Positions 2,953 through 60,341 of a stretch of DNA of 64,000 nucleotides are shown in pieces. The DNA comes from Naegleria gruberi. Its lineage: Eukaryota. The notes beneath the pieces are model-generated. The model searched no databases, was not told the origin of the DNA, and saw only the letters and a program-made list of their open reading frames with translations. Each line of letters starts with the position of its first letter. Position 1 is the first letter of the stretch. A program made the translations under genes and the position numbers. The DNA is taken from the NCBI GenBank assembly GCA_000004985.1, contig GG738897.1; one strand, given 5' to 3'.

Positions 2953-5900
2953 ATGTTTTTAAAACAATGGCTCAATAATAAGAGGAGCAACTCGATGAGT
3001 ACATCATCGTCATCGGGATCTATTAGTAATATGGTGAATACCAACAATAATCAGACAACAAATCCGAATAACAGTTACTCATCAGGGCTGGATAATTTGG
3101 GATTTTTAGATCAGCAAACATCACCCAATTCGCCTCCATCCTCCTCCTCATCACAATTTACCACATCCTCCCAATCACCAACTTCCAATAATCAAAACAA
3201 AGGAGTTTCAGGAGTTGTTGGTGATCAATCTCCTCTCCTTTTCAATCCTCCGAATAATAATAGCACAATTAATAATGAAAAATCAACAATTATGAACACG
3301 TCCACTTACTATACCTACACTGTCCAATCAGAAGAGGGTCTCCCTTCCATGGCCCAACATCACCATTTAGATGATGTTTCATCATCGGATGAGAATTTTC
3401 AATCACCACGAATGGTTCCTCTTCATGTCAATACTACACCTTCTTCATCAAACAATCATCATCAACACTCTGCATCGAGAATGATGCAACCGAATAGAGA
3501 CTCACCACTGATTCATCCCCACCATCATGCCATTCGTGTCTTTCCCTATGATTTACGAAAATTCAATAATAATCAACAACAACAACACATTTCTCATCAT
3601 CAATATTCACAATTATCAACAACACCAAATCAACAACAACATGGCAGTGAAGAATTAGCAGTATCAGTCTCTCCAATTCCTTCCAACCTGATGATGAATA
3701 TACCAGAGATTGGATTAAGTCCAATCACTTCAGGACCCAACAAACTTCTCAATTCTCCACATTCACCAATTGATGATGATCATAATAATGGTGGTGGAAT
3801 TTCACCAAAGAGTGATGAAGAAGTTTCTGTCTCTCTCTTCTCAGGGGATATTTCCAAGGCAGTTCATGATGAGTATTATCCATCACCACAAAAGCTTTCG
3901 GCCTCTCGGTTGTTACCTTCTGAACCACCATCACCAACTGCAACGACCACTAGGCTGGGTGATTCATTCAATAGTCAAATGCATTCACCATCTGTACGTT
4001 CGACAGCTTCAAATGTTTCCACTTCGAGAAGGAGAGCCAACAGTAACAGTTCAAACATTTCATCAACAATGTCCTTCCAGAATCCACAACAAAATGCTCC
4101 ATTTATTGTCTATTCTTTGAAGAATCAATCATTGGGATTTATGAATACTGCCATTTCACATCATTGTTCGAATAGAAATGCCAATCATCACACCCATAAT
4201 TTGTGTGAGGAGTGTACAAATTGTAATATTGCAAGAAATCATACTAGTCCATTTTCTGAAGTGTCAGTCATTAATATGATTGATCCAAATTCATCTCTTG
4301 GTATTGGAGAAGTGAATAATATTAATAAGGTTATATTATTGTACGATAGAAATGTAAATTTAGATACAAGTTATGCTTGTTTGACTCCATACTTTTTCAA
4401 TTATTGGAATTATGCTAATTTTTGTAATAGAAATGGAGAGGAGGTTGGAATTCCGAGAATACCTCCACATCAATACTTTTCCCTGAATGAGGAATTTATG
4501 TTTTATAGATGCAGACCTTTGAAAGTTGCTCCTAATAATATGGTTAGCTCTCCAATGCTGACATGCTATGAGGATGGTAGAATTTCAGTGTGGGATGCTA
4601 CCAATTCTAAACGAGTGGCCAACCTGAACGGTCACAGATTGACAATTACTTGTGCAGTACCAATTTTTGCTCAGGGAACTCTCATTTCTCAATCATCAGA
4701 AGATTCCAATCTCTATTTCCAATATACACCATTTGCTCAATTCTTATTGACTGGATCTGGAGATAAGTCCATTAAATTGTGGGATATTTCAGCAATTTGG
4801 AGCACATCAGGTCAGGCACCTACATTCAATCTGAATCCAGTGAGAACCATGAACATTCACGAATCGAGTGTTAGATGTATTGAACTACTCAATGATGGAT
4901 CCCCAAGATTTTGCTCTGCCTCCAATGATGGTAAAATTTGTTTGTGGAATTGGTTCACTGGAGAGCTCCTCCAAGTGATCAATAGAAGAGAGGATGGATG
5001 CATTTCCAATATGTTTATCATGAATTCCATGTTTTACAATGATATGTCATTCATTGAAAGGACGAACAATACCATCGTTTCAACATGCTCCAACAAGCCA
5101 GATTTATTCATCTATGATTTTGAAAAGATTGAAGATGTTATTGAGGAATCACCAACTATAACCGATGATTCGTCTAGCAATGACTTTTTCTACAAGTTAA
5201 TTGATGAAGAATTGGTACCTTCAGCAACAACAGAGCCAAGTAGTAGTGCATCCGTAGTAACACAACCACCTATTACATCCAACAAACCAAAAAATATCAT
5301 TTCCAGTCTAAAGATTCTCAATATTTTCTCAATGCCTTCCACTTCATCAAATGCTGATAACATTTCACAAAAATCAGATAATTCCTCTCATTCATCCATG
5401 ACTCAATCAATGAATCAATCGATGAACCAATCGCCAAACCAATCTAATCCAACCCTTCCTGCTAAACAGTCAGAGTTTGATTACATTATTAGCACTGTAA
5501 ATAATTTTGGAGAATTAACCTTTTGGAAAACAGCTCAGATCGATTCTGAAGCTAAATGGAACAAGTTGTGCTCTTGCAAGAAGATTCGTGAAATTTTGGA
5601 ATCCAAATACTCATCAAACGAACTCACCTATCAAGCATGTATTCAGTTGGTGGTGAATAATCACTTCTTGTTGGTTTCTCTCGCAAACCACTTGTTCATT
5701 TTCGATATTGCTGACATTCTCATGCACACAGAAGGTAATCAGGAATGTAAATTCTTATTGGAACAGGCAGAGGCTCACTCATCCACCATCACTACCATGT
5801 GTACTCTTCATTATGGTCATATTATTGCCACTGGTGCAGAGGATGGCACGATTCGATTATGGGACACTGGCAAACTGTTGATATCTAATAATCCATACGT

Positions 5901-6624
5901 ACCAACTCCAAATCCAGAAACTGCCTCAACAACAGCCAGCAGTATTTTACATCCTATTGAAAGTATTTTTATTGGAACAAGTAAGAATGTACAAACAGCA
6001 TTTTTGAGAAATATTGCCACATTACAAATGCACAGCCAAGCAATTGTCTCTCTACAATCACTCAATGAATATGCATTTATTAGTGTGGCAAAGGGTGAAC
6101 CATTTGCCTTAATGTGGAAAGATTCGAGAATGGAGAAGAAGCTCAGAGGATATTACGCATTCCATTATGGATTAGGAAATACTGACATGCTCAGTAGTGG
6201 ATCAGCCGGAGGATACAATGTGCCAAACATGCTCTCACTCATGCTTGGTGAGAATAATAGTGTTGCTACAGCACTCAATGTGACACCATTTGCCTATCTC
6301 AGTATGGTTAATAATAGACAAAGAAGTAATAGTGGTATGAGAAAGGTTCAATCTGTGATTGGATTCAAGAATCCAGGATATGGTAAAGCACTATCACCGA
6401 AGAGTTCCAGTACTGAGGATTTGACAGTCAATACGCAAAGAGAAAAGGCAGCTATGAGGGCATTTACTACTGATGATGAAAGATTGAACAAGGATGATGA
6501 AGCTTCTGAGGCTTTAGAATCTCAACAACAGGATGATTACTGTGAAACGTGTACAAGTGAAGTTTCAACTCCTGTACAACATTCACGTACAGACACGGTA
6601 GATAGTGAAAAACTTTTAGAATAA
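2953..6624 (+). CDS. WD40-repeat protein with long S/N/Q-rich low-complexity N-terminus
   Basis: Single 1223-aa ORF starting at ATG. WD40 signatures GDKSIKLWD, SNDGKICLWN, GAEDGTIRLWD. N-terminal half is poly-S/N/Q/H low complexity. Confidence 0.7.
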   Translation: MFLKQWLNNKRSNSMSTSSSSGSISNMVNTNNNQTTNPNNSYSSGLDNLGFLDQQTSPNSPPSSSSSQFTTSSQSPTSNNQNKGVSGVVGDQSPLLFNPPNNNSTINNEKSTIMNTSTYYTYTVQSEEGLPSMAQHHHLDDVSSSDENFQSPRMVPLHVNTTPSSSNNHHQHSASRMMQPNRDSPLIHPHHHAIRVFPYDLRKFNNNQQQQHISHHQYSQLSTTPNQQQHGSEELAVSVSPIPSNLMMNIPEIGLSPITSGPNKLLNSPHSPIDDDHNNGGGISPKSDEEVSVSLFSGDISKAVHDEYYPSPQKLSASRLLPSEPPSPTATTTRLGDSFNSQMHSPSVRSTASNVSTSRRRANSNSSNISSTMSFQNPQQNAPFIVYSLKNQSLGFMNTAISHHCSNRNANHHTHNLCEECTNCNIARNHTSPFSEVSVINMIDPNSSLGIGEVNNINKVILLYDRNVNLDTSYACLTPYFFNYWNYANFCNRNGEEVGIPRIPPHQYFSLNEEFMFYRCRPLKVAPNNMVSSPMLTCYEDGRISVWDATNSKRVANLNGHRLTITCAVPIFAQGTLISQSSEDSNLYFQYTPFAQFLLTGSGDKSIKLWDISAIWSTSGQAPTFNLNPVRTMNIHESSVRCIELLNDGSPRFCSASNDGKICLWNWFTGELLQVINRREDGCISNMFIMNSMFYNDMSFIERTNNTIVSTCSNKPDLFIYDFEKIEDVIEESPTITDDSSSNDFFYKLIDEELVPSATTEPSSSASVVTQPPITSNKPKNIISSLKILNIFSMPSTSSNADNISQKSDNSSHSSMTQSMNQSMNQSPNQSNPTLPAKQSEFDYIISTVNNFGELTFWKTAQIDSEAKWNKLCSCKKIREILESKYSSNELTYQACIQLVVNNHFLLVSLANHLFIFDIADILMHTEGNQECKFLLEQAEAHSSTITTMCTLHYGHIIATGAEDGTIRLWDTGKLLISNNPYVPTPNPETASTTASSILHPIESIFIGTSKNVQTAFLRNIATLQMHSQAIVSLQSLNEYAFISVAKGEPFALMWKDSRMEKKLRGYYAFHYGLGNTDMLSSGSAGGYNVPNMLSLMLGENNSVATALNVTPFAYLSMVNNRQRSNSGMRKVQSVIGFKNPGYGKALSPKSSSTEDLTVNTQREKAAMRAFTTDDERLNKDDEASEALESQQQDDYCETCTSEVSTPVQHSRTDTVDSEKLLE

Positions 6625-6695
6625 ACCAATTCATAATGGAATATTTTGGCCTTTGAAAACATGATTTTAGTTGAGAAAAGAGCAAAAATTCAGAT

Positions 6696-6769
6696 ACCCT
6701 CCACCAGGAGTTGAACCTGGATCTTGCGAATGAGCCAGTCGCATATTCTAACCATTGAACCACAGAGGG
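6696..6769 (-). tRNA. tRNA-like gene (cloverleaf with 9-nt anticodon loop CTGGCTCAT; isotype unresolved)
   Basis: Minus-strand sequence CCCTCTG-TG-GTTC-AATGGTTA-GAAT-A-TGCGA-CTGGCTCAT-TCGCA-AGAT-CCAGG-TTCAACT-CCTGG-TGGAGGG-T. Acceptor, D, anticodon-stem and T arms all pair (with G-U wobbles), and the TTCAACT T-loop is present. The anticodon loop is 9 nt rather than 7. Paralog of the element at 13505..13578. Confidence 0.45.
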
Positions 6770-7136
6770 AATTAATGAAACAACCAAAAATTCTCAAAAT
6801 CACAATCTGGAATTGTACAACAAAACTATTTACTGATGCATTTATTTTGAAACACAAAACATCGAAATTAGAGGAAGCTTTTCAAAAGATCAAAAATCGA
6901 TGCCAAGTTATGTCTACTGTTAAAGAATTGGCAAACAATGAAAATTTTATCAATGATACCAAGTCCATAATTAACTCCTTATTTTGCAGTAGGTCTTTAA
7001 CTGTTTTTTTGCTTCCTTATTTTGTCAGTTCTTTATTGGTGAATATTTGTACAAGTTGCCTTTTGAAAAAAAAATAGGAAAAAAGTAAAGGATTTACTGA
7101 AAACAAACTAAAAATAATAAATAAACTATTTTCTGA

Positions 7137-10650: not shown

Positions 10651-10689
10651 CTAATAATTATGGGATAGTCAATGTGGTAGACTTAAACA

Positions 10690-12440
10690 GAAAGTTCATT
10701 TTCTGAATCAGCAAAGGACCTTCTTATCCAGCAAAGGCCCCTCTCATCCAGCAAGTCACCAACCAATAAAACACCGAATAATGCTTTTTCAGCAAATAAC
10801 TCCTTCTTAATTTCATAAATTACTGATTTAGCAAAGCTTTCTTAATTATCCAAAGATTTGTTCCATTGCAGCAAATTCAATAAAGAAGAATATAAAGTGC
10901 TGATTTATTCTAAACCTGATTATTACGGATTAACAACTTTTATATATTTTGATGTATACATATTATAGTTGCTGTTACTATTAACTTAAGCATTGTGGCT
11001 TCAAGTTGGCAAACTGTAACAACAATCTAAGGACGTGAAAAATATTCAAAAGTGTATTCTTCATAACAAAACATAATCTAAATTAGTATCAACATCTTTA
11101 TTTGAGTTGTTTTATTTGCCATGTGATCCGACTATAAAAGTGACTGTATATGAAGAATCCACCTTAATTTGTAATTTTTTGTTCTGCAACAGCAAATCAA
11201 CGGAAAATATTAATGAAAAGACATCATGTACTAATTTACTATGTTATTTGATGAAATCAAGTGGAGAATGCATAAAACAGATTTTGATACAAGAAAACAC
11301 AATGATGATAATAAAAATATAATTTTATTTAATTATTGAAATAATTCAAGGTGGAAAATCAGCAAGATTTCCGACCTTGAAATTTACCTTGTTGGAAAAT
11401 TCACCATTAGTGAATTTTATTGATGGTTCGATGATGATGACCATTAAGATATTTACCATAATGATCGGAAATGAACTTGTTGATGATATTGATGATAAAA
11501 GATATGATGAAGAGAAAATTCCACAACTCTATGAATACTAAGTGGAAAAATTCCAACTCTCTTGATGGTGATATTAGACATCCCTACTAATGATACTATG
11601 TTGTTGAAATTCTATCATCATGATGAAAATATATGGTGAATGATGAATACACCACCAACAAGGTAAAAACTCAAAATATCCAAAAACTATTATTCGGAGT
11701 GTTGTTGATGATGTATTTGAATAGTACTATTCGAAGAAAGTTTGGAAGATGATGAAGTACATGTTGAGTTATTGCATATGTATAATTTCAAAATATACAT
11801 GAAGCAAACTTGATGAAATGAGAAGATGAATTCCTGCTATTGATACTGGTGATACTATAGAGTATTGCCAACAATCCCTAATTGAAGAAATTCCTAATGA
11901 ACAAGTAAATCTGCTGATGAGGATGATATTATGTGAAATTTGAAATTTCACCCAATAACAAGTACTAACAGAGACTCCACTTGCTTAAATTACTATTAAT
12001 ACAATAATAAATATACTGTGATGATGAACTCCGGCTTAATGATGATGTTTGGAAGTGTGAAATTTCCGATGATAGAAAACCACTATAATTCATTCCGAGA
12101 AGAAGCACCACCATAAAATATTACTATTATTACTATTGGTGAGATGTAGCCCAGCCACTATAATTGAAGTATTCCAAAATGATGATGAGTTGATTGAAAT
12201 AAATACCAGTGATGATGTAGAGGTATTTTTTTTACTTTCTTCAATTGCTAAATGGGAACAATTTCGTGGCTTATTCAGTAAAATTTTGCCAATTTACTGT
12301 TTATTTGCTGATTAAGTATGCGCGGATTCAGTAAAAATGATAAGCACATGGCTTGCTGAAACAGACCATCCTTTGCTGTTTTTTTTGAAAAATTTGCTGA
12401 AAAAGTACTACGCATAGTCAATTAGTTTGAGTTTCTGAAA
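10690..12440. mobile_element. candidate non-autonomous DNA transposon or inverted-repeat-bounded insertion inside an intron of the receptor kinase gene
   Basis: The left flank (10690-10870, + strand) carries about six copies of YTCAGCAAA (atcagcaaaggacc, tccagcaaaggcccc, tccagcaagtcacc, ctttttcagcaaataac, tttagcaaagc, tgcagcaaattc). The right flank (12240-12440) carries the reverse complement TTTGCTG five times (tttgctgaaaaag, tttgctgtttt, cttgctgaaacag, tttgctgattaag, ttgctaaatgg). Shared inverted words include ctttttcagcaaat, cagcaaagga and cagcaaataa. There is no ORF inside, and the core is a GATGATG-rich block. Removing the element would leave an intron of about 50 nt, typical for this locus. 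Confidence 0.4.
11340..12240 (+). repeat. strand-asymmetric GATGATG-rich, C-poor low-complexity block (degenerate (GAT)n-like)
   Basis: More than 20 occurrences of gatgatg/tgatgat on the plus strand within about 900 bp, with almost no C on that strand. No long ORF in any frame. Confidence 0.5.
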
Positions 12441-13268: not shown

Positions 13269-13504
13269 TTTTTTGAAAAGTTTCTCCTTGTTGACAATCC
13301 TGACACACATCAAACTCCTCTGATTGAGAGCTAGTTGATGACTTTTAGCATAATCTTGCAATAATAGAAATTCCCCGATTCCAACTAGAATAGTTATAAT
13401 GGAATCTTCAGGAGTTGGAGTTGTGGTTCCAATTTGTGGGTATAAAAATAACTTGGTTTACTACTCAACTGCGTGACAAAAGTTTTTTTTTCAAATTAAT
13501 ACTT

Positions 13505-13578
13505 CCCTTTGTAGTTCAATGGTTAGAACGTGCGACTGATCCACTCGCAAGATTCAGGTTCAACTCCTGGCAGAGGGT
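13505..13578 (+). tRNA. tRNA-like gene (9-nt anticodon loop CTGATCCAC; paralog of 6696..6769)
   Basis: CCCTTTG-TA-GTTC-AATGGTTA-GAAC-G-TGCGA-CTGATCCAC-TCGCA-AGAT-TCAGG-TTCAACT-CCTGG-CAGAGGG-T. All four stems pair. Differences from the paralog sit in the anticodon loop and as compensatory changes in the acceptor stem, which fits a functional gene family rather than a decaying pseudogene. Confidence 0.45.
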
Positions 13579-13844
13579 TCCTGAATTTTGGTCTTCCTAA
13601 GATGCTAGAGACATTAATAAACACCTTTTATTTTGAAGGGTTTTCTATCAGCAATTCCAATATTTGTTCTTCTCCAATGATTCGAATATAAATGTTATTA
13701 GAAACTTGAGCAACCCTCTGACTTGTTCAAGTTCTTGCCAATTACTATGAGTGCCCATTCACCATGTTCAAGCCAACTTCCATACTATCCATTATGTTAA
13801 ATAGACCACCTGCCACCTGTCATCCAAATCAAAAACAAAAAAAA

Positions 13845-14299: not shown

Positions 14300-17200
14300 C
14301 TACTTTTTAATGGTCAATGGATCATAATCTGGATTCAATGAGCTTCCACAAGTAGCCACTTTTCCAAAATAGGAAAATTCAGAACTAGCCATTCCAGGAA
14401 TCATCAAATCATCACTTTTTACAACTTGAATCGTATCAACATGGAAAGTTCTCAATATTGTTGATGGTTCTGTCAAACTAAATCTCAACTTTTTGAGTGA
14501 AAATGAACTTGTTGTAAACTCAGAAATTGGAATTCTTACTCGTGCTGTTGTATTGTCAATCTTGTAATTTAAAACGTGCTCCTTCTTTACAATTACTTGT
14601 TTACCGAAAGCAGTTACTGAAATATTGAGTGGTCCATAATTATCTGAAACTCTAACAAAGAATTCGAAATGAGAATAGGCAGCACCGCTCAAACCATTAG
14701 TTCTTTCAAGATAGACATCACCACTTCCCATAATCATCTTGATTGCATTACCACATAATCCTCCTTCTCCATTAACTTCATAGGAAGCATCTCCATTTCC
14801 AGTAACAGTCGAGAATGAATTCAAATTGTCTGTGAAGAAGGCATTTCCAAAAGTTCCGTAATTGACACATGAATCTGTGGCATTGGCTATTGGAGGAGGT
14901 AAGGCACATGTCGAAGTAGTCGAATTACTGCAATATAATTGAGCTCTCAAATGTCCAGTTGGATTTTGAGTGGTTGACAATTTGACAAACATTTGACCTT
15001 TCAATAGAGCTACTTGTTCTTGATAAGATAAATCAAGGAGGAAACGACTGACACCATAAGGGGATATTGGATTATCCAATCCTGGATGGATAATTCTCTC
15101 TTGAGTACCGACAGCTCCAATTCCAACTGAAATTTCAGTGGCGATTAAATTCAAATTGTGGAAAACTGTGAAATCTAAAAGTTTTGCTTTGAAATCCCAA
15201 AATGCAAAGACTTTTCCTGAGCCATTTGAGCCAATGAGGGATGAGTTGACTGCTTTTTGTTGGCAGACTTCTAAATTTCCAACAAATCGATCTTCCTTCA
15301 TTAAGGTATTGTAAACTAATTTGGAAGAAGTTGGATTACCAAATTTAGATGGAGCACAGTTATTGTTTGGACAAGTTGCAACAATTCTAATCAAACCAAC
15401 ACTATGATAATCAGAAAATGGGTAAACATTCTCAAAATCATCTCTTGGCACTCTATTTTGTAACTTGACATATAAATGCTCAGTTGTCTGATTGTAATAT
15501 GCCAATTCATTTGGTGAAACCATGACCTCAGCCAATGAACTTGCCCAAGTCACAGGATACGTATTCGAACTTCCACTTTCTGACCAAGTTATCTTGAAAT
15601 CTGTCTTATTTGGATACTGAATTGCCAACACAATCCAATCATAGTTGACTGCATTTTTCAAGCTGACGGACAAATCTCTCGGAGTTGGATGATCATTTGG
15701 CCATCTCAGTCCATAAAATCCTCTATTAAGCAAGTTATATTGTATTACCCATGTGTTATCATTACCTCCTGGGCTTCCATTGGATGGTCCTTGAATATTT
15801 CTCAATTGGTCAACCACGTACATTCTTGGTGTGATGATATTTGCGTTTTTCAATTCAGGTTGTGCAACTCCTTTGGATGAGGTAGTATTGTATGTTGTAA
15901 ACTCGTTATTTCCGACCCTGAGTTGAACGAACATTTCACCAGTTGCGGGACAACCATAAGCACTCCAATCACTATTCGAAACACAACCAGAAAAGGCGTT
16001 CAATGGATCTTGACCAACAATCCAACCTCCACTTGGAAAACCACTAATACTTCCATCCAAATCTGCCCAAATTCCCATTCTCTGGTTATCATATGGAGTA
16101 TTATTCAAGGCATAGAACTTGTTAGAATTAATAAAGGTCAACCCAAAGAGTTTGTTAACTGCTGATTCCAATTGTTTACGAGAACGATGAGAAACTGCAC
16201 CAGAGGCCTTATATGCATCTGGAATAAAGTTAATAAATGTGCAATTGTAAAGTAATTGAGGACCGTCGTCTTCATAAACTTCGTAACCACGAATGATCAA
16301 CTCATCACTTGCATAGAGTTGAGGACGAGTTCTACCACCAACGTCAACCTTTGATCTGAAACTTGAATCGCCTACATTAGAGGTCTCACCAATCATGATA
16401 GAGTTTCTTGTAATAGTTGGTCCCTTTGGTGCAGTAATTTGTACGTTATTGTCAAATGCCAAAAAGTTTTCCAAATAAAGAACTCCTCCCTTAACCCAAG
16501 CTCCATAATCTCTATTCTTGTAAGCAGTAAAACGGAAGAATGAAGCTGACCCATTCAATGGGTAGTATCCCTCAGTTTCTAATGTACCATCAGAAAGCAA
16601 CATTTCATCAATCCACAATCCAGTAATTGAGCTGTGAGCAACGTTATCTTCGAATGGAGCCATTGCTGTTCTTCTTGGATTGAAATCTTGACCTGCATAG
16701 ATGGTAGCACTCATTCCAACAGGGAAAACTGGGAAAGAGAGCCAGAATCCGAACTTACCACCCACAGCAACGTTTCCAATAAAGGTATTGTTTGGCTTTT
16801 TTATGGTTGACTAAAAAATTGTAAAGAACTTTCAAACTTACATTTGTAATCCAATAGACACTAGCATCACAATCCGATGGAATAATTTGTAATTGATCAG
16901 CATCTCCAACCGGATTCACTTTTACGCCTAAATTATTTCTAAATTCATTTCCAAATTCGGAACCATCTTCCAAATAAAAAGCATGACCTGTAATATTGAA
17001 ACAGATATTGTTTTTCACGAGAATGTTTCTAGAATCATGAATGACGATGCATCTTTGATAACTATTCCAAATGGCATTGTTTGCAATCATGAATTGAGTG
17101 GAAATTTGTTTGCTTGTGTCTTTTAACAAGTGAAGATGTAATCCGTATCTTCCCATTAAACCTAAATATGAATAAACATTTAGATTTAGAGTTGAAATTA

Positions 17201-18172
17201 ACTGGAAATTATTCGAAACTTACCTTTTTGACCAACATTTCTCAACTCAACTCCAACAAACTGAAATTGCTTAACCAATCTAACAATCAAATGAGATCCA
17301 AAACTGGATGCATCACTTGAATCATCTCCCTTAAACACAATTCTTCTGGTCAACAATGCAACTTCTGAAAATGTGTAATCTTTACCAACGTGTGTGAAAT
17401 TTAGCGGACTTTCCAATGTCAATGTCAAACCATCAGCTGAAATTGCCTTAATAGTAGCTTTTTCATTTTGATCTGGAAAAGCAACACCTCTTTGCCAATT
17501 TCTGGAAGTGTCATTCATTATCTTGAAATCAACAACTTCACCATAATCAGTTGAAGTTAGCAAAATGTCATCGCCAACACTCCACATGCCAGTGACAGAT
17601 TCTTTCAATGTGATAGAGCTGGTATTCTTGAGTGCAGTAGCATTAAGACGTGTCCATGCCTTATCATTAATCAATTGTCCAACAACTTGAACAGTGGCAC
17701 CTGTCAAAAATGCAATTCCCTTATTTCCTAAATTAGCATTATCATATGGATCAGTACCAAGTGTATTTTCAGTAGATCTAGGACCATAAAATGTAATGGT
17801 AATCTTCTTATAGATAGGACATGAAGTACTTCCCATAATAAACGAAGCATTTCCTTCAACTCTAATGTGATTGACGTTAATATTCATGAATTTGTTGTCA
17901 AAGATTAAAGATCCACCACTTTGGACTGTGATTGAGCCATACTTGACTGGTGGGGAGGTTTTGATTAATACTTTCTGACCTGAAGTGATTACAATGGCAG
18001 ATTCAGCGACTGTGTAATTAGAAAGTGAACTAAAGTCGACTAAACCTGATTGACCGTAAGGACATGCTTGACCATTGGCAAAACCAAACCAACACGCGCT
18101 AATAACAAGAAGCGATGCTAATAAAGCTAGTAATTTCATTTTTTTTACAATGATAAGCTCTTCAAGTTCCAT
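14300..18172 (-). CDS. secreted G8-domain plus parallel beta-helix (PbH1) repeat protein, CEMIP/TMEM2-like; 3 exons 18172(or 18139)..17224, 17161..16842, 16810(or 16795)..14300
   Basis: Signal peptide MKLLALLASLLVISACWFGFANG. G8-like region (VITSGQKVLIKTSPPVKYGSITVQSGGSLIFDN...NINVNHIRVEGNASF). PbH1-like repeats (NAIWNSYQRCIVIHDSRNILVKNNICFNITGHAFYLEDG). Intron 17223..17162 (GTAAGT...atttag) joins ...NVGQK-G-LMGRYGLHLHL. The second intron has GTAAGT at 16841 with acceptor either tttttag (31 nt) or aaaaag (46 nt). Both choices give an in-frame WITN-(STIKK)PNNTFIGNVAVGGKFGFWLSFPV. Confidence 0.65.
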
Positions 18173-30907: not shown

Positions 30908-30979
30908 CTCCCATGCCGGGAATTGAACCCGGACCTCCTGGGTGAAAGCCAGGTATCCTAGCCATTGGACTACACGGGA
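30908..30979 (-). tRNA. tRNA-Glu (anticodon UUC)
   Basis: TCCCGTG-TA-GTCC-AATGGCTA-GGAT-A-CCTGG-CTTTCAC-CCAGG-AGGT-CCGGG-TTCAATT-CCCGG-CATGGGA-G. Canonical cloverleaf with U1-A72, typical of eukaryotic tRNA-Glu. Confidence 0.85.
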
Positions 30980-51803: not shown

Positions 51804-51875
51804 CTTACAGAAATCCCGTGTGGTCCAATGGCTAAGATACCTGGCTCTCACCCAGGAGATCCGGGTTCAATTCCC
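51804..51875 (+). tRNA. tRNA-Glu (anticodon CUC)
   Basis: TCCCGTG-TG-GTCC-AATGGCTA-AGAT-A-CCTGG-CTCTCAC-CCAGG-AGAT-CCGGG-TTCAATT-CCCGG-CACGGGA-G. One C-A mismatch in the D stem. Confidence 0.75.
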
Positions 51876-52033
51876 GGCACGGGAGGATTAATTTTAAACT
51901 TTCACGATTTTTCTTTCTATTTTCCAAATAACACTTTTTAATTTCTTTTTAATGATGAACTCTCTATTTTCATACACATTCAAATTTTCAATCTCCAGAA
52001 ATAACATAATCTCATTACAAAAAAAATGAAAAG

Positions 52034-59951: not shown

Positions 59952-60022
59952 AGGGAGATAGTTCAGTGGTAGAACATGGGATTGTGGTTCCTAAGATCAG
60001 GGTTCGATTCCCTGTCTTCCTA
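59952..60022 (+). tRNA. tRNA-His (anticodon GUG)
   Basis: AGGGAGA-TA-GTTC-AGTGGTA-GAAC-A-TGGGA-TTGTGGT-TCCTA-AGAT-CAGGG-TTCGATT-CCCTG-TCTTCCT-A. Discriminator A73 as in eukaryotic tRNA-His. G-1 is not encoded, consistent with post-transcriptional addition by Thg1. Confidence 0.7.
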
Positions 60023-60341
60023 CTTCTTTTTATAACTATTTGTACAAAGCTTGAATTTAATCTGCACTGTATAATGTTAATTTTGAATTTATATTAAGGT
60101 TCAACCAAATCTTGATACTTCCACACTCAACATTTCCAATATTACTTGGTGATTTTCAATTCTCTGTTTATGGTGCTCTGCATATTGGTTCATTTGTATG
60201 ATATTATTTGATTGATCACTTAAATATTACTTTATTAAGCTCATCAATCAAATCGAATATAGTATCAATTCTGTTTCATCATGATCGTGTTGTAATCATG
60301 CTAATTTTCAACAATTAATCAAACATGACAGCATTCTTCAA

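What the first reader, a model, noticed from the sequence alone, without database searches (positions are those of the whole stretch)
6696..6769. Two paralogous tRNA-like genes with 9-nt anticodon loops (6696..6769 minus, 13505..13578 plus)
Both fold into complete cloverleaves: 7-bp acceptor, 4-bp D stem with AATGGTTA loop, 5-bp anticodon stem TGCGA/TCGCA, 4-nt variable loop, 5-bp T stem with TTCAACT loop. The anticodon loop is 9 nt (CTGGCTCAT versus CTGATCCAC) instead of 7. The two copies differ almost only in the anticodon loop and by compensatory changes in the acceptor stem (CTG..TGGAG versus TTG..CAGAG). That pattern looks like functional isoacceptors, not decaying pseudogenes. If two nucleotides after the anticodon were removed, the loops would read CU-GGC-AU and CU-GAU-AC with U33 and A37 in place. 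So this could be a tiny non-canonical intron, an expanded loop, or a tRNA-derived regulatory RNA or SINE head. The track ORFs 6467..6787 and 13415..13600 merely translate these elements.
Basis: partly seen in the sequence, partly recalled or inferred. Interest (0 to 1): 0.6.

Follow-up and report, generated by a model that had tools for sequence, protein, structure and literature searches.

The report
Two tRNA-like genes, oversized anticodon loops
Two copies of a transfer-RNA-like gene in the amoeba Naegleria gruberi fold into perfect cloverleaves but have a 9-base instead of 7-base anticodon loop; because that loop changes freely (it is 10 bases in a near-identical strain), they are most likely non-decoding leftovers of the amoeba's large tRNA gene family rather than new working tRNAs.

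Summary
The window is Naegleria gruberi nuclear DNA. ARAGORN and Rfam both call 6696-6769(-) and 13505-13578(+) as tRNAs. Each has a complete cloverleaf, all tertiary-contact bases, A and B boxes, a T-run terminator and a 9-nt anticodon loop (CUGGCUCAU, CUGAUCCAC).

- The copies differ at 11 positions, all transitions. The five stem changes keep pairing only through G·U; none is a two-sided compensatory change.
- All 21 pairs surviving is modest evidence of past constraint (P about 0.01-0.04).
- The loop diverges faster than the body (4/9 versus 7/65, p=0.024).
- In a ~98%-identical strain from a metagenome, the copy-2 orthologue has a 10-nt loop plus two more changes (3 events in 74 nt). A canonical tRNA-Glu there is 58/58 identical next to a hypervariable flank.
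- No 7-nt reading gives both U33 and a purine at 37.
- I found no bulge-helix-bulge, no SINE body or tail, no further copies, and no tRNA at the syntenic loci of N. lovaniensis or N. fowleri.

Best reading (confidence about 0.55): lineage-specific tRNA-derived genes, probably still transcribed, that no longer decode. A functional expanded-loop tRNA-like RNA remains possible (about 0.2-0.25). A genome-wide census and tRNA-seq would decide.

The parts
6696..6769 (-). tRNA-like gene copy 1 (74 nt; C1-G72, U73; Glu/Asp/Gly-type class I body)
   Evidence: ARAGORN. Rfam tRNA 51.2 bits. Cloverleaf is the minimum-free-energy fold. 21 of 21 standard pairs.
13505..13578 (+). tRNA-like gene copy 2 (74 nt), 85% identical to copy 1
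   Evidence: ARAGORN. Rfam tRNA 55.4 bits. Cloverleaf is the minimum-free-energy fold, z = -2.1. The orthologue in a ~98%-identical strain is L005 3671-3745.
6730..6738 (-). 9-nt anticodon loop of copy 1, CUGGCUCAU
   Evidence: Sequence check. Predicted to add U-A and G-C pairs inside the loop, leaving a 3-nt apex.
13536..13544 (+). 9-nt anticodon loop of copy 2, CUGAUCCAC (CUGAUUCCAC, 10 nt, in the other strain)
   Evidence: indel at 13539. The same inner U-A and G-C pairs are predicted.
6752..6762 (-). A-box-like internal Pol III promoter element of copy 1 (TGGTTCAATGG, tRNA positions 8-19)
   Evidence: Sequence. Match to the eukaryotic A-box consensus TRGCNNAGTGG is from my own knowledge. 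Function is inferred.
13512..13522 (+). A-box-like element of copy 2 (TAGTTCAATGG)
   Evidence: Sequence. Function is inferred.
6707..6717 (-). B-box of copy 1 (GGTTCAACTCC, tRNA positions 52-62)
   Evidence: Sequence. One mismatch to the consensus GGTTCGANTCC, which I cite from my own knowledge. Function is inferred.
13557..13567 (+). B-box of copy 2 (GGTTCAACTCC)
   Evidence: Sequence. Function is inferred.
6684..6688 (-). T5 run 8 nt downstream of copy 1: a likely Pol III terminator
   Evidence: Sequence. The three canonical tRNAs in the window have T4-T5 runs at similar distances.
13586..13589 (+). T4 run 8 nt downstream of copy 2 (T5 in the other strain): a likely Pol III terminator
   Evidence: Sequence.
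6685..6774 (-). 90-nt duplicated unit, arm 1 (from 5 nt upstream of the tRNA to the T-run)
   Evidence: Inverted repeat I2, 84% complementary. Similarity ends at the T-run.
13500..13589 (+). 90-nt duplicated unit, arm 2

Best explanation
These are two diverged copies of a tRNA-derived gene specific to the Naegleria gruberi lineage. The body is class I and resembles tRNA-Glu, Asp or Gly, but the exact parent was not identified.

The anticodon loop was enlarged by two nucleotides in the common ancestor of the two copies. That removed the canonical 7-membered loop with U33, a triplet and a purine at 37. The genes keep everything needed to be transcribed by RNA polymerase III and processed like a tRNA: A box, B box, T-run terminator and all tertiary-contact nucleotides. 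They are therefore probably still expressed as stable cloverleaf RNAs.

The anticodon loop is no longer held to any fixed sequence or length, so the RNAs most likely do not act as codon-specific adaptors. In short, they are non-decoding tRNA relics, meaning transcribed tRNA pseudogenes or tRNA-like genes. They probably arose as by-products of the large tRNA-gene expansion in N. gruberi.

**Shown:** the structure, the paralogy, the loop size, the loop instability between strains, and the absence from syntenic loci in sister species.

**Inferred:** the single origin of the insertion, Pol III transcription, and the loss of decoding.
For: 1. **Host genome.** The window is N. gruberi. tRNAscan-SE finds 924 tDNAs in that genome, including 41 pseudogenes (PMC2888827 supplement 2). 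About 96 kb sampled from N. lovaniensis (L002, L006, L012, L013) contains no tRNA at all, against 5 in this 64-kb window.
2. **No canonical loop can be read.**
   - Anchored at the 5' side, the anticodons GGC and GAU are followed by a pyrimidine at position 37.
   - Anchored at the 3' side, CUC and UCC have G or A at position 33.
   - Read from the centre as ARAGORN does, GCU and AUC have G33 and C37.
3. **The loop is the most divergent part between the paralogues.** It differs at 4 of 9 positions against 7 of 65 elsewhere (Fisher p=0.024).
4. **Strain comparison.**
   - An independent Illumina metagenome contig, L005, is ~98% identical to the window.
   - It carries the copy-2 orthologue with a 10-nt loop (+U), a T-stem change and a T-loop transversion.
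   - That is 3 events in 74 nt, or 4.1%.
   - Distal intergenic DNA shows 2.0% and coding DNA 1.5%.
5. **Control from the same two genomes.**
   - The canonical tRNA-Glu(CUC) is 58/58 identical although its 3' flank has 8 events in 60 nt.
   - A tRNA-His paralogue is 72/72 identical although its flanks are ~25% diverged.
6. **Signs of transcription.** The flanks of copy 2 are also hypervariable (5% and up to 20%). In other eukaryotes this marks transcribed tRNA loci (PMC6130373). That fits a gene that is transcribed but not protected by selection.
7. **Synteny.** No tRNA lies next to the WD40 or G8 orthologues in N. lovaniensis or N. fowleri.
8. **Loop folding.** In all three variants the loop can close further by U-A and G-C pairs, leaving a 3-4-nt apex. 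That geometry is unsuitable for codon reading.
Against: 1. **The bodies do not look like freely decaying pseudogenes.** All 21 pairs are intact in all three sequences, and every conserved tertiary nucleotide is present. Seven random non-loop substitutions would leave all pairs standard only 1-4% of the time.
2. **All 11 paralogue differences are transitions.** The strain-wide transition fraction is 0.57, giving P=0.002. The functional Glu-UUC/Glu-CUC pair shows the same all-transition pattern. So the RNA structure was under selection for at least part of the time after the loop expanded.
3. **The conserved frame CUG...CA(Y) around a variable centre** is also what a set of isoacceptors would look like.
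4. **The strain evidence is thin.** It rests on one locus and three events. Three events in 74 nt against none in 58 nt is not significant on its own (about p=0.18). The 10-nt allele could be a private null allele.
5. **Expression, processing and charging were not testable.**
Confidence: 0.55

Rival explanations
1. They are functional, non-canonical tRNA-like RNAs. In this reading, a lineage-specific family of Pol III transcripts is under selection for its cloverleaf, and the enlarged anticodon loop is part of the function. The function could be offset, quadruplet or quintuplet decoding. With U33 and A37 kept, the five nucleotides between them would be GGCUC and GAUCC. Alternatively the function could lie outside translation, for example as a decoy for anticodon-targeting enzymes, a regulator, or a donor for aminoacyl transfer.
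For: - The cloverleaf and all tertiary nucleotides are intact in three sequences.
- The substitutions preserve structure and are all transitions, as in the functional Glu pair.
- The loop frame CUG...CA is conserved while the centre varies.
- The promoter boxes and terminator are intact.
- The hypermutable flanks suggest transcription (PMC6130373).
- Natural tRNAs with enlarged loops are known. Examples are the 8-nt yeast mitochondrial tRNA-Thr1 (PMC4756836, PMC4267643) and a likely 9-nt mitochondrial tRNA-Gly in a glass sponge, which matches a UGGA shift site (PMC5009743).
Against: - Loop length differs between ~98%-identical strains, 9 nt against 10 nt. That is hard to reconcile with any fixed decoding geometry.
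- No orthologue sits at the syntenic loci of sister species.
- No relatives turned up in the metagenome, viral or prokaryotic pattern scans.
- The one ORF junction I checked in the window is an ordinary GT-AG intron, not a frameshift.
- The statistical support for constraint is modest and comes from a single paralogue pair.
Confidence: 0.22
2. They are ordinary tRNA genes interrupted by a tiny non-canonical intron or edited site. Two nucleotides would be removed from the loop after transcription to restore a 7-nt loop. The result could be CU-GGC-AU and CU-GAU-AC, or CU-CUC-AU (Glu) and CU-UCC-AC (Gly).
For: - Removing two adjacent bases can give loops with U33 and A37 (sequence).
- MAFFT aligns the copy-1 loop to the window's tRNA-Glu(CUC) loop as CU+GG+CUCAU.
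- Ectopic tRNA introns without a defined bulge-helix-bulge exist in the Guillardia nucleomorph (Kawach 2005, as cited in PMC3978253).
Against: - A 2-nt insert cannot form a bulge-helix-bulge or an anticodon-intron helix, and none is predicted.
- I know of no eukaryotic nuclear tRNA intron this short.
- GGC and GAU are anticodons that eukaryotes normally do not use, because they use A34 edited to I34 (my own knowledge).
- The window already holds a canonical, quite different tRNA-Glu(CUC).
- The other strain has three extra bases instead of two.
- Two tRNAs with nearly the same body would have to serve different amino acids.
Confidence: 0.05
3. They are the heads of a tRNA-derived SINE or another mobile element, so the two copies are insertions rather than genes.
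For: - The duplicated unit is short (90 nt), with sharp ends from 5 nt upstream to the T-run. That is roughly a primary Pol III transcript.
- A 9-nt direct repeat, GAATTTTTG, flanks copy 1.
Against: - There is no tRNA-unrelated body and no A-rich or LINE-like tail. Similarity ends at the terminator.
- No consistent target-site duplication flanks copy 2.
- No further or degenerate copies appear in the window or in ~150 kb of other Naegleria loci.
- Canonical Glu and His paralogues in the same genome also share short flanks, so this is simply how tDNAs duplicate here.
Confidence: 0.05

Closest known systems
tRNA pseudogenes and undetermined-isotype tRNA-like genes in expanded eukaryotic tDNA families (tRNAscan-SE 'Pseudo'/'Undet' calls; 41 pseudogenes among 924 N. 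gruberi tDNAs, PMC2888827)
   Same: They derive from a tRNA gene and are specific to one lineage. They carry a lesion in a functional determinant, the anticodon loop. Between close strains they show no detectable constraint, and they sit in a genome with a very large tDNA family.
   Different: The rest of the molecule is flawless. The two copies have diverged without breaking any pair. Typical pseudogenes score low and accumulate stem mismatches, whereas these score 51-59 bits on the Rfam tRNA model.
Natural tRNAs with enlarged anticodon loops: yeast mitochondrial tRNA-Thr1 (8 nt; PMC4756836, PMC4267643) and Iphiteon panicea mitochondrial tRNA-Gly (probably 9 nt; reviewed in PMC5009743)
   Same: The loop is larger than 7 nt in an otherwise normal cloverleaf.
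   Different: Those are organellar, are single essential genes tied to a defined codon reassignment or shift site, and are conserved. The Naegleria genes are nuclear and duplicated, differ in the loop between copies, and vary in loop length between strains. No matching recoding site is known.
Frameshift-suppressor and engineered quadruplet or quintuplet-decoding tRNAs (for example SufB2 with 8 nt, PMC7803779; engineered 9-nt loops for five-base codons, from my own knowledge)
   Same: The loops have the form CU + 5 nt + A + Y, which is the layout used for five-base anticodons.
   Different: Those are mutants or designs selected for a specific extended codon. Here nothing points to extended codons, and a 10-nt allele exists.
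tRNA genes with ectopic or very short introns (Guillardia theta nucleomorph, Cyanidioschyzon merolae; PMC3978253)
   Same: Extra nucleotides interrupt a conserved part of a tRNA gene.
   Different: No bulge-helix-bulge or relaxed variant is possible with 2 nt. The insert is not at position 37/38 in any reading that keeps a sensible anticodon. Its length is not conserved.
Survey reports of predicted tRNAs with 9-nt anticodon loops (69 of 3092 cyanobacterial tRNAs, PMC6933170)
   Same: These are computational predictions of 9-nt loops in otherwise tRNA-like genes, with function untested.
   Different: In that survey the 9-nt loops came with shortened anticodon stems of 3-4 bp, so they may be alternative drawings of the same arm. 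Here the 5-bp stem is intact and the loop truly has two extra bases.

Membership tests
Canonical elongator tRNA (Rfam RF00005) | Cloverleaf with 7/4/5/5-bp stems, scoring above the family threshold | tested here: met
   Rfam scores are 51.2, 55.4 and 59.3 bits against a gathering score of 29. All 21 pairs are standard.
Canonical elongator tRNA (Rfam RF00005) | Conserved tertiary nucleotides: U8, A14, G18 G19, A21, G53 T54 Psi55 C56, A58, C61, and the R15:Y48 pair | tested here: met
   All are present in both copies by direct reading. The list of positions is from my own knowledge.
Canonical elongator tRNA (Rfam RF00005) | 7-nt anticodon loop with U33, a triplet and a purine at 37 | tested here: not met
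   The loops are 9, 9 and 10 nt. No register gives both U33 and R37.
Canonical elongator tRNA (Rfam RF00005) | Strong purifying selection on the mature sequence between close relatives | tested here: not met
   There are 3 events in 74 nt against none in 58 nt for tRNA-Glu(CUC) in the same pair of genomes. This is one locus only, so the result is weak.
Intron-containing eukaryotic tRNA gene | Intron one nucleotide 3' of the anticodon (37/38), with an anticodon-intron helix or bulge-helix-bulge | tested here: not met
   The folds show only a 2-bp extension of the stem, with no bulges. Two nucleotides cannot form the motif.
tRNA-derived SINE | tRNA head followed by a tRNA-unrelated body and an A-rich or LINE-derived tail, with target-site duplications | tested here: not met
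   Similarity ends at the T-run 11 nt after the tRNA. There is no tail. A flanking 9-mer repeat is seen at copy 1 only.
tRNA-derived SINE | Many dispersed, partly degenerate copies | tested here: inconclusive
   No other copy appears in the window or in ~150 kb of other Naegleria loci. The whole N. gruberi genome could not be searched.
Expanded-anticodon (frameshift-decoding) tRNA | Anticodon loop of 8 nt or more | tested here: met
   The loops are 9 nt in both copies.
Expanded-anticodon (frameshift-decoding) tRNA | Extended anticodon conserved and matched to recoding sites in mRNAs | tested here: not met
   Loop length and sequence differ between strains and between copies. The one ORF junction inspected is a GT-AG intron. 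Recoding sites genome-wide could not be tested.
tRNA pseudogene | Derived from a tRNA gene and carrying a lesion in a functional determinant | tested here: met
   The body is that of a tRNA and the anticodon loop is non-canonical.
tRNA pseudogene | Neutral evolution of the whole sequence | tested here: inconclusive
   Between strains the rate matches intergenic DNA. Between paralogues the substitutions preserve structure, with P about 0.01-0.04.
tRNA pseudogene | No mature, charged product | not testable with these tools
   This needs tRNA-seq or northern blots and charging assays.

The most novel reading that the evidence does not exclude
N. gruberi may carry a lineage-specific family of Pol III-transcribed RNAs whose cloverleaf is under selection and whose enlarged, hypervariable anticodon loop (9-10 nt, frame CUG-N3/4-CAY) is itself functional. 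The function could be non-triplet or offset decoding, or a role outside translation such as a decoy for anticodon-loop-targeting nucleases or modification enzymes.
Probability: 0.2. Interest if true: 0.7.

Novelty: new member of a known kind. Interest (0 to 1): 0.3.

Why it matters
If these are relics, they are a tidy example of how a tRNA gene can lose its adaptor function while keeping its promoter and fold. They also show that annotation pipelines can give such genes spurious anticodons: ARAGORN calls them Ser-GCU and Asp-AUC, and other tools would probably call Ala-GGC and Ile-GAU with an "intron". Spurious calls like these distort tRNA-repertoire and codon-usage analyses in a genome with more than 900 tDNAs.

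If instead they are functional, they would be the first nuclear-encoded natural tRNA-like RNAs with 9-nt anticodon loops that I am aware of. That would bear on the natural limits of anticodon-loop size and on non-canonical uses of tRNA scaffolds.

Tried and rejected
1. **Metagenome DNA scan.** The pattern TTAGAAN{19,21}AAGATNCAGGTTCAAC gave one hit, and it is not a tRNA.
2. **Viral-contig scans.** Three patterns were tried. The only hits are unrelated phage tRNA-Arg(ACG) genes that happen to share the 3' anticodon-stem and T-arm string.
3. **Prokaryotic genome scan.** No hit, so there is no sign of a bacterial origin.
4. **Peptide search.** I searched the protein database with the six-frame translations of the two elements, hoping to catch spurious ORFs called over relatives in other assemblies. 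No hit.
5. **Fetching more N. gruberi genome.** Looking up N. gruberi proteins failed because the assembly is not in the gene-position index. The canonical parent tRNA and the genome-wide copy number could not be obtained.
6. **Exact-sequence cluster look-ups.** ORFs next to copy 1 were tried in order to find its orthologue in the second strain. None is in the collection.
7. **Syntenic loci in sister species.** The WD40 and G8 neighbours in N. lovaniensis and N. fowleri have no tRNA nearby.
8. **Literature.** Nothing was found on Naegleria tRNAs with enlarged loops, and the sequence strings appear in no paper.
9. **RIP-like or deaminase explanation for the all-transition differences.**
   - I considered it because Naegleria has expanded DYW-type deaminases (PMC3239186).
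   - I set it aside because the functional Glu-UUC/Glu-CUC pair also differs only by transitions.
   - The excess is also modest once G/C-involving sites are considered (P=0.016).
10. **Frameshift at the 16755-16765 ORF overlap.** It is a normal GT-AG intron.

Full report
**What the window is.** Eight long ORFs were looked up by exact sequence. Six are annotated Naegleria gruberi proteins on one 326,913-bp scaffold, for example EFC39700 and EFC39775. The window is 31-36% G+C and densely coding. Its genes are typical of this amoeba: WD40, an EGF/kinase, NHL, G8/CEMIP, G-alpha and RGS.

**The observation.**
- ARAGORN reports both as 74-nt tRNAs. It reads the anticodon from the middle of an oversized loop as GCU and AUC.
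- The Rfam tRNA model scores them 51.2 and 55.4 bits against a threshold of 29. The three canonical tRNAs in the window, Glu-UUC, Glu-CUC and His-GUG, score 61-69 bits. The only irregularity is an insertion in the anticodon loop.
- ViennaRNA returns the cloverleaf as the minimum-free-energy fold for both.
- Stem and loop sizes are 7/4/5/5 bp, a D loop AAUGGUUA, a variable region AGAU, a T loop UUCAACU, and 9-nt loops CUGGCUCAU and CUGAUCCAC.
- By direct reading, every nucleotide I know to be conserved for tRNA tertiary structure is present: U8, A14, G18, G19, A21, G53, T54, Psi55, C56, A58, C61 and A15:U48.
- Sequences matching the A and B boxes are present. A T4-T5 run lies 8 nt downstream, as it does for the canonical tRNAs.

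**How the two copies relate.**
- They form a 90-nt inverted repeat at 84% identity. It runs from 5 nt upstream of the tRNA to the T-run, and similarity then stops.
- Canonical paralogues in this genome also share short flanks. The Glu-UUC/Glu-CUC pair does, and so does a second tRNA-His just beyond the window. This is therefore how tDNAs duplicate here, not a SINE signature.
- The copies differ at 11 of 74 positions: 4 in the loop, 5 in stems and 2 unpaired (positions 9 and 26, purine to purine).
- All 11 differences are transitions. All five stem changes keep a standard pair, but only through G·U. No pair has changed on both sides.
- The pattern is still not what random decay predicts. Seven random non-loop substitutions leave all 21 pairs standard in only 1-4% of simulations.
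- With the transition fraction measured between strains (0.57, from 134 substitutions), 11 of 11 transitions has P=0.002. Conditioned on G/C-involving sites it is 0.016.
- The functional Glu-UUC/Glu-CUC pair also differs only by transitions. The simplest reading is past selection on the fold, not a special mutational process.
- The loop has diverged faster than the rest (4/9 against 7/65, p=0.024).

**The loop cannot be read as a normal anticodon loop.**
- Anchored on U33, the triplets are GGC and GAU, followed by U or C at position 37 where a purine is the rule.
- Anchored on A37, they are CUC and UCC, preceded by G or A instead of U33.
- Read from the centre, they are GCU and AUC, with G33 and C37.
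- In all variants the flanking CUG...CA can form U-A and G-C pairs that shrink the apex to 3-4 nt.
- A bulge-helix-bulge or an anticodon-intron helix is not possible with two extra bases.

**Evidence from a second strain.**
- A search with the neighbouring G8/CEMIP ORF found a 99%-identical protein on a 4,957-bp ENA metagenome contig (L005, sample ERZ929261).
- The contig is ~98% identical to the window across 4.7 kb and spans the copy-2 locus.
- Its orthologue (L005 3671-3745) is 75 nt with a 10-nt loop, CUGAUUCCAC. It also has a T-stem U-to-C change (U·G to C-G) and a T-loop C-to-G change. It still scores 59.3 bits and folds as a cloverleaf.
- Copy 1 serves as an outgroup. By that test the 9-nt loop is ancestral, and the insertion is derived in the metagenome strain.
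- Event densities are 4.1% in the element, 5% in the 60 nt upstream and up to 20% in the 60 nt downstream. The downstream figure is inflated by a ~109-nt indel. Distal intergenic DNA shows 2.0% and coding DNA about 1.5%.
- The control comes from the same two genomes. The 58 nt of tRNA-Glu(CUC) covered by contig L007 are identical, although the next 60 nt carry 8 events (13%) and the rest of the contig about 1%.
- A paralogous tRNA-His on contig L008 is 72/72 identical to the window's copy, although its flanks are ~25% diverged.
- Conserved bodies next to hypervariable flanks are the published signature of transcribed, selected tRNA genes (PMC6130373).
- The odd element shows the hot flanks but not the protected body. 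That suggests it is transcribed but not under the constraint of a decoding tRNA.
- Caveat: this is one locus with three events, and 3/74 against 0/58 is not significant on its own (about p=0.18). The weight lies in the kind of change, since a length change in the anticodon loop would disable any adaptor with a fixed geometry.

**Wider comparisons.**
- The WD40 gene next to copy 1 has orthologues in N. lovaniensis and N. fowleri, and no tRNA lies nearby.
- The G8 orthologue locus in N. lovaniensis has none either. Two further N. lovaniensis loci brought the sample to ~96 kb with no tRNA at all.
- N. gruberi is reported to have 924 tDNAs, 41 of them flagged as pseudogenes (PMC2888827). These elements therefore sit in a lineage-specific tDNA expansion.
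- Pattern scans of metagenomes, viral contigs and prokaryotic genomes found no relatives.
- A permissive Rfam scan and blastn-short found no further or decayed copies in the window or the fetched loci.
- The N. gruberi assembly itself could not be reached. Genome-wide copy number and the canonical parent remain unknown.
- By eye and by MAFFT, the body is closest in architecture to the Glu/Asp/Gly group: a 4-nt variable region, an AAUGGYUA D loop and a UUCAAYU T loop. The copy-1 loop aligns to the Glu-CUC loop as CU+GG+CUCAU. C1-G72 and U73 match none of the window's tRNAs.

**Interpretation.**
- The best-supported account is a tRNA-derived gene whose anticodon loop gained two bases. It then duplicated, kept its promoter, terminator and fold, and is probably still transcribed. 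It no longer works as a codon-specific adaptor (confidence about 0.55).
- The main rival is that the cloverleaf, and perhaps the enlarged loop, are functional, either in unusual decoding or outside translation (about 0.22). It is kept alive by the structure-preserving substitution pattern and by precedents for enlarged loops in organellar and suppressor tRNAs (PMC4756836, PMC5009743).
- The tiny-intron and SINE-head ideas each fail a defining feature and get about 0.05.

**Literature.** I found no report of Naegleria tRNAs with enlarged anticodon loops.

**Verdict.** This is a real and tidy curiosity, most likely ordinary in kind. Interest is 0.3. It would rise to about 0.7 if tRNA-seq showed mature, charged 9-nt-loop RNAs.

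Noticed in passing
window 30908-30979(-) and 51814-51885(+): tRNA-Glu(UUC) and tRNA-Glu(CUC) form a 92% inverted repeat 20.8 kb apart. They differ at 5 positions, all transitions, including the anticodon wobble base. Glu-CUC carries a C13·A22 mismatch in the D stem.
   Followed up: partly
L008 1386-1457 (beyond the window's 3' end) versus window 59952-60023: A second tRNA-His(GUG) gene lies just outside the window. It is 72/72 identical to the window's copy, and its 3' flank stays ~75% similar for about 60 nt. N. gruberi tDNAs therefore duplicate as small segments that include their flanks.
   Followed up: partly
window 51886-51945 and 13579-13638: Between NEG-M and the metagenome strain, the 60 nt downstream of both a canonical tRNA and the odd tRNA-like gene are hypervariable (13% and up to 20% events, against 1-2% background). 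This looks like transcription-associated mutagenesis at tDNAs, now seen in a heterolobosean.
   Followed up: partly
window 10674-12413, and just after 13600: There are structural differences between the strains. About 1.74 kb of the window is absent from contig L005, whose 4831-4957 joins window 10673-10547 directly. L005 also has about 109 extra nt just downstream of copy 2.
   Followed up: no
window 6793-6801 and 6683-6691 (minus-strand reading): A 9-nt direct repeat, GAATTTTTG, lies 24 nt upstream and 5 nt downstream of copy 1. The downstream copy is part of the trailer shared with copy 2, so this is probably chance in AT-rich DNA.
   Followed up: partly
L002, L006, L012, L013 (N. lovaniensis, ~96 kb) versus the window: There are no tRNA genes in ~96 kb of N. 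lovaniensis against five in 64 kb of N. gruberi. This fits a tDNA expansion specific to the N. gruberi lineage.
   Followed up: no
window 14300-18172(-): The G8/CEMIP-like gene is split into three ORFs that sum to 1,278 aa, the same length as the N. lovaniensis orthologue. The ORF overlap at 16755-16765 is a short GT-AG intron of about 48 nt, not a frameshift.
   Followed up: yes
window 11879-11945(+): There is a weak sub-threshold match to the C/D-box snoRNA family SNORD104 (22.5 bits against a threshold of 40, E=0.5). It is probably chance.
   Followed up: no
L010 9145-9216(+) (IMG/VR jumbo-phage contig): ARAGORN reports a tRNA with an undetermined two-base 'anticodon' (gg) in a phage tRNA array. 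It is unrelated to the finding.
   Followed up: no
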